From a bacterium (GTDB lineage Bacteria > Patescibacteriota > Minisyncoccia > Phycocordibacterales > UBA918), in NCBI GenBank assembly GCA_043728975.1, contig JAYTMA010000027.1, positions 1-38,465 of the forward strand: a DNA stretch of 38,465 bases, written 5' to 3'. Below are positions 17,789 to 27,963 of the stretch, in pieces (positions within the stretch are counted from its first letter, which is position 1; each line of letters begins with the position of its first letter). The notes under the pieces are model-generated. The model was not told where the DNA came from and searched no databases. It saw nothing but the letters and a program-made list of their open reading frames with translations. The translations under genes were made by a program, and so were the position numbers.

Positions 17789-19567
17789 ATGATGAATTTT
17801 AATGACAGTGTAACCAATGCCAGACTAGCTGAACTACGTAGCGAAGAAGAAGAAAAACTAGTTCAAGCCATGGCCCCCCAATATGGACTCGAGTATGTAA
17901 ATCTGCACGGGTACACCATGAATCCAGAAGCGATTGCTACCATTCCCGAAAAAAAAGCCCGTGAAGCTAGCATCGTCTCTTTTGACCACACCCATGAAAC
18001 CTTAAAGGTGGCGATGAAAAGTCCCAACAACGCGGTTACTTTGCAAATCCTAGACGAAATCCAAACCAGTAGTCGTCTCACGGTCATTCCCTTCCTTTGT
18101 TCCAGTGGTAGCCTAGAGCACGCTTGGAAACGTTACGCCGACATAGTTGCTTCTAAATCTGGCGAAAAAGGCGTGTTTGATATAAATCCAGAAGAGATAA
18201 CCAGGTTTATAAAAAACATCACCACCAAGGAAGATGCCGCGGCCATGATGGCTAAGGTCGGTGGAATCAATAATGCGCGCCGGGTTACAGAAACTCTCGA
18301 ATTAGTCTTTGCCGGTGCGATTGCTCTTCGCTCGTCTGATATCCACATCGAGCCAGAAGAGAAGGTCATCCGCTTGCGCTATCGTCTGGATGGTATTCTC
18401 TATGACATCTACGACATAGACCGTTATATCTATCAGCGAATGATGTCCCGTTTAAAGCTACTGGCAGGAATGACTCTCAATCAAAAGCAACAAGCTCAAG
18501 ATGGTCGCTTCACTTTTAACGCCGGCGACCGTGAAGTAGAAATTCGCGCCTCGGTTATTCCTGGTTCTTCCGGTGAATCTATCGTCATGCGTATCTTGGA
18601 CCCCTCAGTCGCCAGCTTTACATTAGACAAAATCGACCTCGGTCCAATCTTGCGCGAAGCGATGATGAAAGAATTAAAAAAGCCCAATGGCCTGATTGTC
18701 ACCACCGGTCCAACTGGTTCAGGTAAGACGACGGCTCTCTATGCTTTTTTGCGCGCCGCTCACACTGAGGGAGTAAAAATTATTACGATTGAAAATCCGG
18801 TCGAGTACAAGCTTGAAGGTATCGTCCAAACCCAAACCGGGGATGACTATACTTTCGAAGCCGGCTTACGAGCCGTCCTGCGTCAGGATCCCGACATCAT
18901 TATGGTGGGTGAAATCCGTGATCGTGAAGTGGCCGAAACCGCCATCCACGCCGCCCAGACTGGTCACTTAGTATTCTCTACTCTCCATACCAATAGTGCG
19001 GTCGGCGGCTTCCCGCGACTGATTGACCTCGGTATTGACGCTCGCACTCTCGGGAGCGCGGTTAGTGCTTTTTTAGGGCAAAGACTGGTCCGCCGACTTT
19101 GCCAGGAGTGTAAGCAACCGTACGAGGCTTCCGAGGCTGAATTTTCTGTCTTGGCCCAAATAATGGCCAACCATCCACAGCCGGTTGTGCTAGAAAAGCC
19201 CCTGACTCTACACAAGGCTGTTGGTTGTGCTGTTTGTGGTGGCCGCGGCTACAAGGGTCGAATGGGTATTTTTGAAGCGGTCTTGATGGATGAAGCCGTG
19301 GAAGAGGTGGTAATTAGAGACCCGCGCGAACATCTCATTTTGCAAGCAGCGAGACCCCAAGGTATCCCAACCCTAGTAGAAGACGGAGCCGAGAAAGTCA
19401 TCCGCGGCGATACCACTTTGGAAGAACTGGAGCGGGTAGTAGAATTGCCAAAAATTAATCCGCCCGCCCCTACCCCACCCCCTACCCCTACTATCACAAA
19501 CGCACCGGAAACCCTAGAGAAGCCAGCCGATAAACCTGATCCGTTCCTTTCCCACATCATCACTTAA
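17789..19567 (+). CDS. pilB: GspE/PilB-family secretion/type IV pilus assembly ATPase
   Basis: T2SSE N-terminal domain, Walker A GPTGSGKTT, Asp box, Walker B IMVGEIRD, His box STLHTN, and a tetracysteine cluster CQEC..CAVCGG. It carries an unusual Pro/Thr-rich ~45-aa C-terminal tail. Confidence 0.9.
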   Translation: MMNFNDSVTNARLAELRSEEEEKLVQAMAPQYGLEYVNLHGYTMNPEAIATIPEKKAREASIVSFDHTHETLKVAMKSPNNAVTLQILDEIQTSSRLTVIPFLCSSGSLEHAWKRYADIVASKSGEKGVFDINPEEITRFIKNITTKEDAAAMMAKVGGINNARRVTETLELVFAGAIALRSSDIHIEPEEKVIRLRYRLDGILYDIYDIDRYIYQRMMSRLKLLAGMTLNQKQQAQDGRFTFNAGDREVEIRASVIPGSSGESIVMRILDPSVASFTLDKIDLGPILREAMMKELKKPNGLIVTTGPTGSGKTTALYAFLRAAHTEGVKIITIENPVEYKLEGIVQTQTGDDYTFEAGLRAVLRQDPDIIMVGEIRDREVAETAIHAAQTGHLVFSTLHTNSAVGGFPRLIDLGIDARTLGSAVSAFLGQRLVRRLCQECKQPYEASEAEFSVLAQIMANHPQPVVLEKPLTLHKAVGCAVCGGRGYKGRMGIFEAVLMDEAVEEVVIRDPREHLILQAARPQGIPTLVEDGAEKVIRGDTTLEELERVVELPKINPPAPTPPPTPTITNAPETLEKPADKPDPFLSHIIT

Positions 19568-19590
19568 AATCGTTAATCCAGATGAAAGAT

Positions 19591-19619
19591 AAAAAACCGC
19601 TCTGGTCAAGCGGTTTTTT
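19591..19619 (+). terminator. Intrinsic terminator after pilB
   Basis: AAAAAACCGC-TCTGGTCAA-GCGGTTTTTT. Confidence 0.7.
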
Positions 19620-19670
19620 ATTACTGCTGTGCTATAGTCAAAAGTAGTTACCCGATCCTACTCATTAGTT

Positions 19671-19808
19671 CCAGAATATAACTCTCTAAGCAAGGCTTCC
19701 GCATTGAAAGTGAATACCGCGCTAAGAAAGCATGTAGCACCCTCACTCAAGGTGAGAGCCACAAACCCCTCGCAACGTATCCAAGTTGCTTAGAGAGTTA
19801 TCGTCTGG
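19671..19808 (+). ncRNA. Candidate structured RNA of unknown class (138 nt, closed by a 5+16 bp helix); strand not established
   Basis: CCAGA(19671-75)/TCTGG(19804-08) and ATAACTCTCTAAGCAA(19678-93)/TTGCTTAGAGAGTTAT(19786-801) pair perfectly around a 92-nt interior that includes the hairpin CTCAC-TCAAG-GTGAG. A possible extended -10 (TGcTATAGT, 19630-19638) lies upstream. No coding potential. Confidence 0.35.
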
Positions 19809-19901
19809 AATTTTAGAAACTAAAGAAAGAAAGGTTGGCAACAAACATCAATTTATTGCCGAGAACAACTTTACTCCTATATACTAGCACAGATAAATTA
19901 T

Positions 19902-19939
19902 TTGTCAATTATTGACAAGAGTTATGTGTGTGTTAGATT
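19902..19939 (+). promoter_or_regulatory. Sigma70-type promoter with a palindromic operator over the -35
   Basis: TTGACA (19912-17), a 16-nt spacer, then TAGATT (19934-39). The inverted repeat TTGTCAAT-T-ATTGACAA (19902-19918) covers the -35. An AAGGAG SD sits at 19977-82, 9 nt before the ATG at 19992. Confidence 0.5.
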
Positions 19940-19991
19940 ATTTGCGTTACCTGTTCCTCAACCGTCAGCAACTTAAAAGGAGTCTGACAAC

Positions 19992-20405
19992 ATGCCCACC
20001 AAAACCAACCAACTCGACCTCGCTCAGCGCATCGCCGAACACGTGGCCCGCACTTCCGAGCCACGCCCTTGCAGTTCCTCCCTCAGTGACGGTGATGATG
20101 ACCCGAAACAGGAACCCATCGGCAAGGTGCCCGTGCACTTGCGCCACCTGCACAACCTGCTCGAGGACCTCGCCAACGATGCCGACGCGGTGGAACGCGA
20201 GTACCACGAGCGCAAGGCGCTCATGAGTGCCGTGCGAGACCTGTTCTTCACCTCGCTGAAGACCCACGTCCCCGATCCCGAGGGTGCGAGCTGCATCATG
20301 ATCCGCAATGACTGGAGCGTCATCGCCAACATGGGCGATGGCAGCGACTCCGACTTGGCCAGCATGATCGCCGCCACGATCATCACCGGAGGCAGGCGTC
20401 GCTAA
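19992..20405 (+). CDS. Hypothetical protein (137 aa) with strongly G+C-rich, GC3-biased coding sequence, probably of foreign origin
   Basis: It has a canonical SD and ATG and is followed by a strong terminator. Codons end overwhelmingly in G/C (CTC, GAC, GCC, CGC, CTG, ATC). I recognise no family for MPTKTNQLDLAQRIAEHV...IITGGRRR. Confidence 0.6.
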   Translation: MPTKTNQLDLAQRIAEHVARTSEPRPCSSSLSDGDDDPKQEPIGKVPVHLRHLHNLLEDLANDADAVEREYHERKALMSAVRDLFFTSLKTHVPDPEGASCIMIRNDWSVIANMGDGSDSDLASMIAATIITGGRRR

Positions 20406-20461
20406 CGAGCCTCAGCCACCCTCGCGGAACCCCCGCATCAACCCGCCTTTGAGCGGCTACG

Positions 20462-20501
20462 GAAACCCTCCGTCAGCTGTATCAACGGCGGGTTTCTTTT
20501 T
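20462..20501 (+). terminator. Intrinsic terminator of the high-GC ORF
   Basis: GAAACCCTCCGT-CAGCTGTATCA-ACGGCGGGTTTC (11 bp, one mismatch) followed by TTTTT. Confidence 0.7.
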
Positions 20502-20524
20502 ATATACAAATGGTTCGTACCACC

Positions 20525-20556
20525 AGAGTGCTTCCTGCCCCGGGCACTCTTTTTTA
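20525..20556 (+). terminator. Second, tandem hairpin + T-run
   Basis: AGAGTGC-12 nt-GCACTCT followed by TTTTTT. Confidence 0.5.
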
Positions 20557-20629
20557 CTCCGGAATCCACGTTAATTATTTAATTTTCTAAAGACAAGAAA
20601 TAAAACCCTTAATTTGCTATCATATTGGC

Positions 20630-26590: not shown

Positions 26591-26592
26591 AG

Positions 26593-26724
26593 ATGCTCAA
26601 TATGTCTATAATCTCTGTACCACTTAATGAAGAAGCTATTAATGCTGTCTTACGGGCTGAGCACGAAGTATCTGAGGGTAAATTGCTGCGCACCGCTTCC
26701 CCCCGAGATCTTTTGCATAAATAA
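26593..26724 (+). CDS. Small ORF (43 aa), possible antitoxin of the downstream RelE/ParE-type toxin
   Basis: MLNMSIISVPLNEEAINAVLRAEHEVSEGKLLRTASPRDLLHK*. Its stop lies 6 nt before the toxin ATG. The call rests on position only and no family is recognised. Confidence 0.3.
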   Translation: MLNMSIISVPLNEEAINAVLRAEHEVSEGKLLRTASPRDLLHK

Positions 26725-26730
26725 TTGTCT

Positions 26731-26988
26731 ATGAACATTGCGTATACACCTCAATTTCTGCGCATGTTGAGAAAACTTGAACGCTCTCTCCAGGAAGAAG
26801 CGGTTGAGAAAATTGAATTGTTTGAAAATGATCCAACCCATTCACAACTTAAAACACACAAGCTCAAGGGAAAGTTAAAGAACCGGTATAGTTTCTCAGT
26901 GAATTACCAGACTCGTATCATCTATATGCATCTCTCTAAAAGTGACGTAGCCTTCCTTGCTATCGGAGATAATGATGTGTACAAATAG
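26731..26988 (+). CDS. RelE/ParE-superfamily toxin
   Basis: MNIAYTPQFLRMLRKLERSLQEEAVEKIELFENDP...LKGKLKNRYSFSVNYQTRIIYMHLSKSDVAFLAIGDNDVYK. The length and pattern are typical, and it is a paralogue of the split gene at 27407. Confidence 0.7.
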   Translation: MNIAYTPQFLRMLRKLERSLQEEAVEKIELFENDPTHSQLKTHKLKGKLKNRYSFSVNYQTRIIYMHLSKSDVAFLAIGDNDVYK

Positions 26989-27099
26989 TAAATTAACGAG
27001 TGAGATAAAATGTCCAAATATAAATACTCGTATCATCCAACCGCCCAAACACAGCTCCAAACCTCCTAAGCGACGTCGCCCCAAGATATAGACAACATA

Positions 27100-27123
27100 A
27101 TACCAAAGTATATACTTTGGTAT
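27100..27123. promoter_or_regulatory. Perfect 24-bp palindrome abutting the antitoxin start codon (candidate TA operator)
   Basis: ATACCAAAGTAT|ATACTTTGGTAT is exactly self-complementary and ends one base before the ATG at 27124. Its centre contains a TATATA -10-like element. Confidence 0.55.
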
Positions 27124-27405
27124 ATGAATACACATACTATTTTAAACATAAAAACCGATAAGAAACTTAAGGCAGATGCCCAGAAAGTTGCTGCTGAACT
27201 TGGTGTTCCACTCAGTACAGTCATGAATGCCTTTCTCAAACAATTTGTCCGCGATAAAGAAATCACACTTTCAGCCAATCAATATCTCCCCACTCCCTAC
27301 CTAGAAAGTATCCTCGAGCAGGCGCAGAAAGAATACGAAGCTGGTGATTATGTCGGACCCTTTAAAACCGGTGAAGATTTTATCGCTCACCTAAAGTCTC
27401 TTTAG
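27124..27405 (+). CDS. RelB/DinJ-family (RHH) antitoxin
   Basis: ILNIKTDKKLKADAQKVAAELGVPLSTVMNAFLKQFV is a DinJ-type ribbon-helix-helix. The toxin gene starts 1 nt after its stop. Confidence 0.75.
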   Translation: MNTHTILNIKTDKKLKADAQKVAAELGVPLSTVMNAFLKQFVRDKEITLSANQYLPTPYLESILEQAQKEYEAGDYVGPFKTGEDFIAHLKSL

Positions 27406-27406
27406 T

Positions 27407-27812
27407 ATGCGCTTCATTCTTTCGAAAAGATTTGCGAAAGACTTTACAAAACTGCCTACCCCAATCAAGAAGAAGGCAATTGCCACTTTTGAAAAATTTG
27501 TCGAAAACCCCCAAAATCCTACCCTGCGGAACCACGGTCTATCCGGAAAATGGAAAGGTCACTGCAGTATCAATATCACTGGTGACATTAGAGCAATTTA
27601 TTCCACGTAAATACCGACGTGGCGTAAGCCCGGGGATGTAGTGAGTTGCTCTATCGCAAAGCGATAGAGATTAAGCAACGAAGTTGCTTAACTAAAAGGC
27701 CATAGGCCGAATAGATACCCCGTCCCGTAAGGGCGGGGAGATTCATTTCGTTACTGAAGACAAAATGGTGCGATTTGTTGCAATTGGATCACACCGCGAA
27801 TTATATGGATAG
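27407..27812 (+). pseudogene. RelE/ParE-superfamily toxin gene split by a 145-nt insertion
   Basis: The 5' part (27407-27601) encodes MRFILSKRFAKDFTKLP...GHCSINITGDIRAIY and then hits TAA at 27608. The 3' part (27747-27812, frame +1) encodes FVTEDKMVRFVAIGSHRELYG*. The joined product aligns without gaps to the paralogue at 26731-26988. Confidence 0.65.
27602..27746 (+). mobile_element. 145-nt hairpin-dense insertion (candidate non-autonomous element with same-orientation subterminal hairpins)
   Basis: It contains the module copies 27610-27637 (AATACCGACGTGGCGTAAGCCCGGGGAT) and 27713-27740 (AGATACCCCGTCCCGTAAGGGCGGGGAG). It also contains perfect hairpins CTCTATCGC-AAA-GCGATAGAG (27649-69), TTAAGCAAC-GAA-GTTGCTTAA (27671-91) and GGCC-ATA-GGCC. 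The boundaries are ambiguous by 2 nt (AT). No transposase gene is present in the window. Confidence 0.45.
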
Positions 27813-27963
27813 AGACTAAGTTTCCTCATCAAAACAAATCCTCGCTTCACTTAACCACTCCATACACAAATCTTCAAACTGTTTCCACCGCACGGGTATT
27901 GGATTTTTACCTTCGTAAACTCATTAAAAATCTGGCCTGCCCCCAGGAACAGAACGTACCTTT

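What the first reader, a model, noticed from the sequence alone, without database searches (positions are those of the whole stretch)
19992..20501. Self-contained, strongly G+C-rich gene cassette embedded between pilB and ruvB
Seen in sequence: two 60-nt lines I counted inside the ORF (20041-20100 and 20161-20220) are 63% and 68% G+C. The line just upstream (19801-19860) is 33%, and four coding lines counted elsewhere are 37-53%. Nearly all codons end in G/C, and all six frames are open across the region, which is why the track shows three extra overlapping ORFs.

The ORF has its own TTGACA-16 nt-TAGATT promoter with a palindrome (TTGTCAAT-T-ATTGACAA) over the -35, and a canonical AAGGAG SD 9 nt from the ATG. 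Start regions I inspected for seven neighbours (ruvB, yebC, ruvC, pilB, tyrS, dnaN, PBP1A) show no SD. A strong terminator follows, then a second tandem hairpin with a T-run. I recognise no family for the 137-aa product, which has an acidic, Ser/Asp-rich N-terminal part and ends in GGRRR.

Inference: this is a recent horizontal acquisition from a high-GC donor, placed under a repressible native-looking promoter. If the organism is an epibiont of high-GC hosts, a host-derived gene is one possibility. The function is unknown.
Basis: partly seen in the sequence, partly recalled or inferred. Interest (0 to 1): 0.7.

Follow-up and report, generated by a model that had tools for sequence, protein, structure and literature searches.

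The report
GC-rich orphan gene cassette, Patescibacteria-wide
A small gene with its own promoter, ribosome-binding site and terminator was inserted between pilB and ruvB; it belongs to an undescribed protein family of ultra-small (Patescibacteria) bacteria whose members are G+C-rich islands in nearly every genome that carries them, so the composition is a family trait and not the mark of a high-GC donor.

Summary
ORF 19992-20405 has 62.8% GC and GC3 0.82, against 43% for the window and GC3 0.32-0.50 for the other real ORFs. It is the only one of 31 ORFs with a Shine-Dalgarno site, and it has a near-consensus promoter and two terminators.

It is a real gene. Twelve close homologues and 125 clusters at 50% identity exist, and no Pfam, NCBIfam, PHROG, PADLOC, PDB or fold match was found. 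The two nearest relatives found keep pilB-ruvB synteny but lack about 680 nt (about 19913-20591), so it is an insertion or a twice-lost segment.

The high-GC-donor reading is not supported. Every homologue examined sits in a 35-56% GC contig of Patescibacteria type, usually at a different locus, and most are 8-25 points richer in GC than their flanks. Synonymous sites between these genes are saturated.

The promoter, a roughly 45-60-nt unstructured leader (about 46 nt in the window) and the SD travel with the gene.

The "operator" palindrome is the cassette's -35 box abutting the -35 box of a resident, conserved, unclassified structured RNA gene on the minus strand (about 19589-19875).

The protein's function is unknown. 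It is probably a dimeric helix plus beta-hairpin protein made at high level.

The parts
19913..20591 (+). Segment present in the window but absent from the same pilB-ruvB spacer in the two closest relatives found. The borders are approximate, to within a few nt.
   Evidence: Alignment with L039 and L041. Homology stops just after ...ATTTGTCAA(T/C)TA(T/C)T and resumes at ...ACAAGAAAT(A/T)AA upstream of ruvB.
19912..19939 (+). Cassette promoter: -35 TTGACA, a 16-nt spacer, and an extended -10 (TG)TTAGATT.
   Evidence: Consensus scan gives 10 of 12 matches. A TTGAC(A) box lies 63-104 nt upstream of the ATG in 16 of 16 family loci.
19902..19918 (.). Palindrome TTGTCAAT-T-ATTGACAA, formed by two back-to-back -35 boxes of divergent promoters.
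   Evidence: The left half is conserved in the empty-site relatives L039 and L041. The right half is the start of the cassette.
19946..19991 (+). Predicted 5' leader. The transcription start is inferred, not mapped. It carries the family motif GTTCC..AACCGTCAGC (19953-19971) and the SD AAGGAG (19977-19982).
   Evidence: The motif is conserved in 10 distinct loci whose proteins are 40-50% identical. No consensus structure was predicted. In 356 kb of held DNA the motif occurs only upstream of family genes. The SD duplex is -8.2 kcal/mol.
19992..20405 (+). Protein-coding gene of 137 aa, GC 0.628, GC3 0.82. It belongs to an undescribed Patescibacteria family with motifs LD(I/L)AQRIA, G.VP.HLRHLHNLL, FF..L and W.V.
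   Evidence: Only the sense frame is open in all 17 homologues. dN/dS is 0.25 in one orthologue pair.
20406..20500 (+). GC-rich 3' UTR (20406-20439, 73.5% GC) and the first intrinsic terminator (stem 20440-20494 followed by a T-run).
   Evidence: It is conserved in L017 and L018, and homology with those loci ends at the T-run.
20525..20556 (+). Second terminator-like hairpin with a T-run. It lies in an extra stretch of about 85 nt that is absent from L017 and from the empty sites.
19589..19875 (-). Resident candidate structured RNA gene next to the cassette. It has a 25-bp closing stem (19669-19693 with 19786-19810), a core of about 143 nt, and an intrinsic terminator at 19621-19589.
   Evidence: Minus-strand fold is -106 kcal/mol with z -6.8; the plus-strand fold is -81. 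It is conserved in L039 and L041 with many G-U pairs on the minus strand. No Rfam family matches.
19881..19908 (-). Promoter of the resident RNA gene: -35 TTGACA (19908-19903) and an extended -10 TGCTAGTAT ending at 19881.
   Evidence: It is conserved in L039 and L041.

Best explanation
Shown.
- The ORF is a real gene of an undescribed small-protein family that was found only in Patescibacteria (CPR) contigs.
- It is carried as an autonomous one-gene expression unit: a near-consensus sigma-70 promoter with an extended -10, a G-poor unstructured leader with a family-specific motif, a strong Shine-Dalgarno site, the ORF, and an intrinsic terminator.
- In this lineage the unit lies in the pilB-ruvB spacer, directly against the -35 box of a resident structured-RNA gene. 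That junction creates the palindrome.
- The two nearest relatives found lack the unit.

Inferred.
- The G+C richness is a property the family keeps in nearly every genome that carries it. It is an equilibrium held by selection on the transcript or by another GC-biased process acting on the ORF and 3' UTR. It is not the fingerprint of a high-GC donor.
- The design should give strong and possibly conditional expression in genomes whose own genes are nearly leaderless and lack SD sites. The elements are an open leader with an SD for ribosome loading, followed by a GC-rich, strongly folded message body that should resist decay.
- The product is probably a homodimer built from one long helix and a beta-hairpin. 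It carries a conserved N-terminal helix on a flexible acidic linker and a short hydrophobic C-terminal helix ending in GGRR. This suggests a small abundant adaptor that binds partners through its end peptides. Its cellular role is unknown.
For: Real gene and family.
- 12 homologues were found, with invariant motifs.
- 125 clusters at 50% identity were found with a profile search.
- The sense frame is the only frame open in all 17 homologues.
- dN/dS is 0.25 for L021 against L012.

Taxon. Named records are Patescibacteria group, Adlerbacteria, Kaiserbacteria and Paceibacterota. The closest named RuvB hits are Candidatus Paceibacterota.

Insertion. The empty sites in L039 and L041 show it.

GC-rich islands elsewhere (gene GC / flank GC).
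- L008 .57/.44, L009 .60/.44, L016 .61/.46, L022 .62/.47, L014 .64/.56, L021 .64/.47, L025 .65/.45.
- L026 .575/.38, L027 .55/.43, L034 .68/.50, L037 .67/.50.

Saturation. The same-codon fraction at conserved residues between the window gene and every member except L017 equals the random expectation.

Syntenic pair. L021 and L012 share the X..GlmS-ABC neighbourhood. GlmS has pS 0.83 and ABC 0.84, both saturated, yet X keeps GC3 0.85 and 0.81.

Not ordinary codon selection. Ribosomal-protein genes in related contigs have GC3 0.32-0.42.

Extent of the GC rise. The 3' UTR is GC-rich and the 5' UTR is not.

SD. It is unique among 31 starts in the window, and the X gene has one of the strongest SD matches in each of five related contigs, clearly the strongest in three.

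Promoter, leader and SD travel with the gene. The leader has no consensus structure.

Message body. It folds at -0.38 to -0.45 kcal/mol per nt and tends to fold more strongly than codon-shuffled controls.

Fold and dimer hint. The AlphaFold2 model has pLDDT 77-93 for residues 41-110. Natural tandem-duplicate proteins exist in the family.
Against: - No expression data exist. The promoter, transcription start, SD use and terminators are sequence-level matches only.
- The force that keeps GC high was not identified. Repeated import from an unsampled GC-rich pool cannot be excluded.
- The syntenic X pair has lower synonymous divergence (pS 0.445) than its neighbour genes. Either synonymous constraint or a later exchange would explain that.
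- Three or four members are not GC-rich: L032 .33/.35, L007 .46/.41, and L015 (with the same gene in L029 and L030) .50/.47. The trait is therefore not universal.
- dN/dS is 0.84 between the window gene and its nearest homologue. This could mean relaxed constraint.
- The structure model has only moderate confidence (mean pLDDT 72, pTM 0.45) and matches nothing known. The dimer and adaptor ideas are inference.
- Only about 20 distinct loci of the 125 clusters were inspected.
Confidence: 0.6

Rival explanations
1. One reading: a recent horizontal acquisition from a high-GC organism, possibly the high-GC host of an epibiont, whose composition has not yet decayed.
For: - The GC jump is sharp, at z 5.2.
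- The gene is absent from the same spacer in two relatives.
- Its codon usage looks like that of a high-GC genome, with GCC, CGC, CTC/CTG, ACC and ATC preferred.
Against: - No homologue in a high-GC context was found among 5.8 billion and 1.84 billion protein sets, 185,579 species genomes, metagenome contigs, phages or plasmids.
- Even the family members rich in Gly, Ala, Arg and Pro lie in about 50% GC contigs.
- The promoter and leader are AT-rich and follow a consensus shared with a resident RNA gene.
- GC3 stays high across synonymous saturation.
- The nearest genome lacking the gene is already at dS above 1, so recency is not shown.
Confidence: 0.07
2. Repeated import from an unsampled GC-rich mobile pool within Patescibacteria, such as a plasmid, phage or GC-rich lineage. 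Each chromosomal copy would be young, so none has had time to decay.
For: - The gene lies at a different locus in almost every genome.
- Even the 67%-identical homologue has a different right flank.
- One carrier, an Adlerbacteria contig, has 56% GC.
- Upstream of 19886 the window and L017/L018 are identical, while the cassette differs by 16-18%. This points to exchange by recombination.
- The syntenic X pair has lower synonymous divergence than its neighbours.
Against: - No viral or plasmid copy of the protein or of the leader motif was found.
- No two copies in different contexts are close to each other. The best pair is 80% identical in protein and most pairs are saturated.
- The L021, L012 and L009 loci share the GlmS-ABC neighbourhood, which fits vertical descent.
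- There are no recombinase genes, target-site duplications or terminal repeats.
Confidence: 0.2
3. GC-biased gene conversion at a recombination hot spot. Frequent allele replacement by homologous recombination would drive up GC across the exchanged segment.
For: - The GC rise covers the ORF and the 3' UTR, with GC3 > GC1 > GC2.
- A sharp change in divergence at about 19886 between the window and L017/L018 suggests a recombination breakpoint.
- The spacer is a site of gene gain and loss.
Against: - From general knowledge, reported conversion bias in bacteria shifts GC3 by a few points, not by about 40.
- The promoter and leader, which lie inside the same exchanged unit, are not GC-rich.
- Copies sit at non-homologous loci, which limits homologous exchange.
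Confidence: 0.08
4. Artefact: a chimeric assembly, a non-coding GC-rich segment, or a real gene that is actually the 120-aa antisense ORF.
For: Long antisense ORFs overlap the gene. Many contigs end in the upstream RNA gene.
Against: - The gene-ruvB junction recurs on contigs from several independent samples (14 contigs read), and the longest contigs shown also carry pilB upstream.
- Family conservation is at the protein level in the sense frame, with in-frame indels.
- The antisense frame is interrupted by stops in 8 of 17 homologues. It stays open only where GC3 is high, because antisense stops correspond to the sense codons TTA, CTA and TCA.
Confidence: 0.02

Closest known systems
Phage 'morons': autonomous promoter-ORF-terminator units with atypical composition inserted between phage genes. 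This comparison rests on general knowledge of lambdoid phage genomics.
   Same: It is a single ORF with its own promoter and terminator. It is inserted between two unrelated genes, its composition differs sharply from its flanks, it is present or absent among relatives, and it has no mobility genes of its own.
   Different: It lies in chromosomal housekeeping contexts and not in a prophage. No viral copy was found. The same promoter, leader and SD are inherited with the gene across a whole protein family, and the composition is kept over long times instead of decaying.
Ordinary horizontally acquired genomic islet with donor composition
   Same: The base composition is atypical and the segment is absent from the same site in related genomes.
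   Different: No donor lineage with matching composition exists in the data. Every carrier is a 35-56% GC Patescibacteria-type contig. GC3 persists through synonymous saturation.
SD-bearing exception genes in genomes that otherwise avoid SD sites, for example rpsU (bS21) in Flavobacteriia.
   Same: It is a lone strong SD in a genome whose other genes lack one. That would allow translation control through the availability of the anti-SD.
   Different: There is no evidence here for such a mechanism. The product is acidic and unrelated to ribosomal proteins. The 16S rRNA of this organism was not available.
Integron gene cassettes
   Same: It is a small single-gene unit found in many genomic contexts.
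   Different: It has its own promoter. Its 3' hairpin is an ordinary terminator with a T-run and differs between members. No integrase is among the called genes within 6 kb.

Membership tests
Phage moron | Own promoter and own terminator flanking a single ORF | tested here: met
   The promoter matches 10 of 12 consensus positions and has an extended -10. There are two terminator-like hairpins. This is sequence-level evidence only.
Phage moron | Composition differs from the neighbouring genes | tested here: met
   GC is 0.628 against 0.43, and GC3 is 0.82 against 0.32-0.50.
Phage moron | Located in a phage or prophage genome | tested here: not met
   The neighbours are TsaE, PolA, PilB, RuvB, YebC, RuvC and TyrS. 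There is no hit in IMG/VR contigs, GenBank phages or BFVD.
Recent transfer from a high-GC donor | Homologues native to high-GC genomes | tested here: not met
   All loci examined have flanks of 35-56% GC. No other kind of carrier was found.
Recent transfer from a high-GC donor | Absent from the same site in close relatives | tested here: met
   L039 and L041 have a spacer of about 411 nt without the gene. These relatives are already at dS above 1.
Recent transfer from a high-GC donor | Composition decays toward the host's with residence time | tested here: not met
   GC3 is 0.81-0.85 in syntenic orthologues whose neighbour genes are saturated at synonymous sites. Synonymous sites are saturated across the GC-rich members.
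Operator-controlled (for example Fur-family 7-1-7 box) promoter | The palindrome is conserved with the gene or elsewhere in the genome | tested here: not met
   The palindrome is present only in the window species and in L017/L018. Other family promoters lack it. There is no second copy in the window. Its left half belongs to a resident promoter that is present in the empty sites.
Integron cassette | Promoterless ORF followed by an attC site, with an integrase nearby | tested here: not met
   The unit has its own promoter. The 3' element is a terminator with a T-run and differs between members. No integrase is among the called genes within 6 kb. The whole window was not scanned for recombinases.
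Any curated protein family or defence system (Pfam, NCBIfam, PHROGs, PADLOC, PDB) | A significant profile or fold match | tested here: not met
   The best Pfam E-value is 0.1 and the best PHROG E-value is 0.14. Scans of 55 members gave only scattered single hits. The best PDB profile E-value is 0.022, to a coiled coil. Foldseek found nothing at E of 0.001 or better.
Rfam RNA family (for the neighbouring structured RNA) | A covariance-model match | tested here: not met
   Nothing reaches a gathering score. Only inconsistent weak hits appear at E up to 10 in the window, L039 and L041.

The most novel reading that the evidence does not exclude
The family is a dedicated privileged-expression module. 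It would be a gene that carries its own promoter, leader, SD and base composition from genome to genome and actively keeps a GC-rich, decay-resistant message in AT-rich, near-leaderless, SD-less Patescibacteria. It would be translated by a route that resident genes do not use, for example only when the anti-SD is exposed during stress or attachment. A wilder variant is that the universal expression signals and the GC-rich codons fit the gene for expression in a different cell, the symbiont's host.
Probability: 0.12. Interest if true: 0.8.

Novelty: new variant of a known kind. Interest (0 to 1): 0.55.

Why it matters
Atypical base composition is routinely read as a sign of recent foreign origin. 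Here one gene family keeps a composition 10-25 points above its host genomes across a phylum, even where synonymous sites are saturated. If selection on the message is the cause, this is a clean natural case of composition being selected at the level of a single transcript.

It is also a handle on how translation starts and how mRNA decays in Patescibacteria, which are mostly uncultured. The case gives a caution for island-finding methods.

The work also defines an undescribed and probably highly expressed protein family, and an unclassified conserved RNA gene next to it. Both are concrete targets for metatranscriptomics and proteomics.

Tried and rejected
- **Known families.** Pfam, PHROGs, NCBIfam, PADLOC, a PDB sequence profile, and Foldseek against PDB and BFVD gave no meaningful match.
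- **Phage or plasmid origin.** tblastn against GenBank phages and PLSDB plasmids, a protein scan of IMG/VR and a leader-motif scan of IMG/VR found nothing.
- **High-GC reservoir.** I looked up the two members whose proteins look most like those of high-GC organisms (P0036 and P0093). Both lie in about 50% GC contigs.
- **Translational selection for GC3.** Rejected, because ribosomal-protein genes in related contigs have low GC3.
- **Selection for an unstructured message.** Rejected, because the ORF RNA folds strongly, as much as or more than codon-shuffled controls.
- **Structured leader, riboswitch or thermometer.** RNAalifold predicts no consensus pairs.
- **Leader motif as a regulon operator.** It occurs only upstream of family genes in 356 kb of held DNA and nowhere else in the window.
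- **Metal-binding role for the HLRHLH motif and a metal-gene neighbourhood.** Only the L009-type loci have Fur, Zip, VIT1 and MgtE neighbours. The histidines are not kept in distant members.
- **Transposon-like borders.** There are no target-site duplications and no terminal repeats.
- **An 18-nt leader/ORF direct repeat (19943 and 20233).** It is not conserved in other members, so it is chance.
- **Overlapping antisense gene.** Rejected.
- **Literature.** Searches on Patescibacteria codon usage, expression and SD use returned nothing relevant.
Full report
**Observation**

GC is 63.3% for 20041-20100, 68.3% for 20161-20220 and 33.3% for 19801-19860. The ORF 19992-20405 has GC 0.628 and GC3 0.82. 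The window averages 0.434, and every other credible ORF has GC3 0.32-0.50. Compared with all other 414-nt windows, the ORF lies 5.2 standard deviations out.

The expression signals are as described:
- The promoter is TTGACA, 16 nt, then (TG)TTAGATT.
- The palindrome lies at 19902-19918.
- AAGGAG lies 9 nt before the ATG.
- Two terminator-like hairpins follow.

I extended the SD claim from 7 neighbours to 30. No other ORF start in the window pairs with the anti-SD better than -5.5 kcal/mol, against -8.2 for this gene. Many starts have a -10-like box only 7-17 nt upstream, so the genome looks nearly leaderless.

Only "all six frames open" is overstated. Two frames are stop-free within the ORF and a third only in its interior; the other three have 4-7 stops. 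The gene-ruvB junction recurs on contigs from several independent samples (14 contigs were read), and the longest contigs shown also carry pilB upstream, so this is not a misassembly.

**What the ORF is**

It is a real protein-coding gene. A word-indexed search found 12 homologues at 37-67% identity. They share invariant blocks: LD(I/L)AQRIA, G.VP.HLRHLHNLL, FF..L.T and W.V. A profile search of 1.84 billion representatives found 125 clusters, including natural tandem duplicates.

Only the sense frame is open in all 17 homologous genes examined. The long antisense ORFs are a by-product of high GC3, because antisense stops correspond to the sense codons TTA, CTA and TCA. dN/dS is 0.25 in one orthologue pair and 0.84 against the nearest homologue. 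In the latter pair the changes are concentrated in the linker and the tail.

No curated family, defence model, solved structure or predicted viral structure matches.

The AlphaFold2 model has mean pLDDT 72, and 77-93 for residues 41-110. It shows:
- a short N-terminal helix (residues 10-20);
- a disordered acidic linker;
- one 43-residue helix;
- a beta-hairpin;
- a short C-terminal helix before the GGRRR end.

A single long helix plus a hairpin, together with the tandem-duplicate relatives, suggests a homodimer. That is inference.

**Where the family lives**

Named genome records that carry it are Patescibacteria group UBA3527, Adlerbacteria, Kaiserbacteria and Paceibacterota. The window's RuvB is closest to Candidatus Paceibacterota proteins.

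The gene sits at a different locus in almost every genome:
- def/fmt and SIMPL;
- MgtE and Fur;
- SLT and RNase R;
- PIF1 and FAD-oxidase;
- an ECF sigma factor;
- patatin.

No partner gene recurs, so context gives no clue to function.

**The decisive comparison at this locus**

Two relatives keep the order PolA-TsaE-PilB-RuvB-YebC-RuvC. They are L039 (GCA_020720815.1, RuvB 93% identical) and L041 (RuvB 84%). Both have only about 411 nt between pilB and ruvB and no such gene.

The alignment shows that about 680 nt of the window, roughly 19913-20591, have no counterpart in them. So the gene was gained in the window's lineage or lost twice. The nearest relative is already at dS 1.2-3.4 in the flanking genes. 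"Recent" therefore cannot be claimed.

**The palindrome and a missed neighbour**

The shared part of the spacer (19589-19912) is a conserved element. It folds far better on the minus strand: -106 kcal/mol with z -6.8, against -81 on the plus strand. Its features are:
- its own minus-strand promoter, with -35 TTGACA at 19908-19903 and an extended -10 TGCTAGTAT;
- a 25-bp closing stem;
- a core of about 143 nt that is almost invariant in genomes whose proteins are at dS above 1;
- many G-U pairs on the minus strand;
- an intrinsic terminator at 19621-19589.

No Rfam family matches in any of the three genomes.

The right half is the first hexamer of the inserted cassette. The palindrome is therefore a junction of two back-to-back -35 boxes. 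More distant family promoters do not have it. A role as an operator is not excluded, but nothing requires one.

**The cassette travels as a unit**

A TTGAC(A) box lies 63-104 nt upstream of the ATG in 16 of 16 family loci, usually as TTGACAAATA followed by TGnTAnnnT. Ten distinct loci whose proteins are only 40-50% identical share the leader motif GTTC(A/C)C..GTTCC..(A/C)CCGTCA(A/G)..(A)GGAG.

There is no conservation upstream of the -35 box. The leader has no predicted consensus structure. Within 356 kb of held Patescibacteria DNA the motif occurs only in front of family genes.

In five related contigs the family gene has one of the strongest SD matches, clearly the strongest in three of them.

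No transposon-like ends or target duplications flank the unit. No recombinase is among the called genes within 6 kb.

**Composition is a family trait**

Gene GC against flank GC is as follows:

| Locus | Gene GC | Flank GC |
|---|---|---|
| Window | .63 | .43 |
| L017 | .66 | .44 |
| L021 | .64 | .47 |
| L025 | .65 | .45 |
| L009 | .60 | .44 |
| L008 | .57 | .44 |
| L016 | .61 | .46 |
| L022 | .62 | .47 |
| L014 | .64 | .56 |
| L026 | .575 | .38 |
| L027 | .55 | .43 |
| L028 | .54 | .46 |
| L034 | .68 | .50 |
| L037 | .67 | .50 |

The exceptions are L015 (with the same gene in L029 and L030) at .50/.47, L007 at .46/.41 and L032 at .33/.35.

C dominates third positions (0.36-0.57) and A is avoided (0.04-0.14) in the GC-rich members.

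Between the window gene and every member except L017, the fraction of identical codons at conserved residues equals the random expectation. Synonymous sites are therefore saturated, and the shared high GC3 is not inherited from a recent common source.

L021 and L012 share the X..GlmS-ABC neighbourhood. GlmS and ABC are saturated at synonymous sites (pS 0.83 and 0.84). X nevertheless keeps GC3 0.85 and 0.81.

Ribosomal-protein genes in related contigs have low GC3 (0.32-0.42). Ordinary selection for expression does not produce this pattern.

The GC rise covers the ORF and the 3' UTR (0.62, and 0.74 before the terminator). It does not cover the promoter and leader (0.405). The message body is strongly folded, at -0.38 to -0.45 kcal/mol per nt, with z of +0.4 to -3.5 against codon-shuffled controls.

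No copy was found in viral contigs, GenBank phages or plasmids.

**Interpretation**

The best reading has four parts:
- It is an autonomous, moron-like, one-gene unit of a family seen only in Patescibacteria.
- It was inserted beside a resident RNA gene.
- Its composition is maintained, not imported.
- Its open leader plus SD, followed by a GC-rich folded body, fits strong or conditional expression from a long-lived message in genomes that otherwise use neither leaders nor SD sites.

The last step and the protein's role are inference. The proposed role is a small dimeric adaptor that uses its conserved end peptides.

The main rival is repeated import from an unsampled GC-rich pool within the phylum. 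Three things keep it alive: the scattered loci, the lower synonymous divergence of the syntenic X pair, and the pattern against L017/L018. In that pattern there are no substitutions (one single-base indel) in 192 nt upstream of 19886, and then 16-18% divergence through the cassette to its terminator, where homology ends.

Biased gene conversion and artefact explanations are weaker.

**Limits**

- There are no expression data and no 16S rRNA for this organism.
- Only about 20 of the 125 clusters were seen in their genomic context.
- The structure model has moderate confidence.
- The mechanism of movement and the force that keeps GC high are not identified.

Noticed in passing
window 19589-19908, minus strand: A conserved, strongly folding candidate RNA gene of about 290 nt. 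It has its own consensus promoter and terminator, a 25-bp closing stem and a nearly invariant 143-nt core. It is present in the empty-site relatives L039 and L041 and matches no Rfam family. Many independent contigs end inside it.
   Followed up: partly
window 26591-27960: A second segment present in the window but absent from L039. The gap from the end of PBP1A to the start of the dnaN ORF, which also contains the conserved 96-aa gene, is 1666 nt here against 298 nt in L039. The segment holds two small ORF pairs that look like RelB/DinJ-type antitoxins with RelE/YafQ-type toxins (26593-26988 and 27124-27610). That identification is by eye and was not tested. Its GC is ordinary, so accessory insertions in this genome are not generally GC-rich.
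   Followed up: partly
L009, L010, L011, L012 and L013, about 30 nt either side of the stop of the 109-aa homologue P0008 (for example L009 8328-8420): An in-frame TAA follows ...VVAN. The same frame then continues to encode the family's usual tail (RSDNEDDEMGGGLGELLAMAAMGDHR) and remains GC-rich. It is present in several TARA Oceans samples and in the UBA3527 genome. It could be a young nonsense mutation, a dispensable tail, or read-through.
   Followed up: no
whole window (starts of 31 ORFs): The genome looks SD-less and nearly leaderless. TATAAT-like boxes lie 7-17 nt before many start codons. The 12 large ORFs checked end in TAA or TAG and none ends in TGA, but this is a small sample.
   Followed up: partly
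L017 and L018 compared with window 19694-20500: Divergence changes abruptly. There are no substitutions (one single-base indel) in the 192 nt upstream of 19886, then 16-18% divergence through the promoter, leader (with a 10-nt GTTCC-repeat indel), ORF (dN/dS 0.84) and 3' UTR. Homology ends at the terminator T-run, and patatin follows instead of ruvB.
   Followed up: partly
L005 1-48 compared with window 19621-19668: One contig with the identical gene and ruvB has a different left flank. The difference starts exactly at 19669, the first base of the RNA gene's closing stem. It is either a structural variant or an assembly artefact at the hairpin.
   Followed up: no
L026 compared with L034, L035 and L036: Two genomes share a PIF1-helicase / FAD-oxidase neighbourhood but carry the family gene at different positions within it: downstream of the oxidase in one, and between the two genes in the other. 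This suggests local relocation or independent insertion.
   Followed up: no
window 18800-19400 (3' half of pilB): This is the next-highest GC stretch of the window (0.54-0.56). It includes a Pro/Thr-rich C-terminal tail with a CCCCTACCCC direct repeat at 19467-19488.
   Followed up: no
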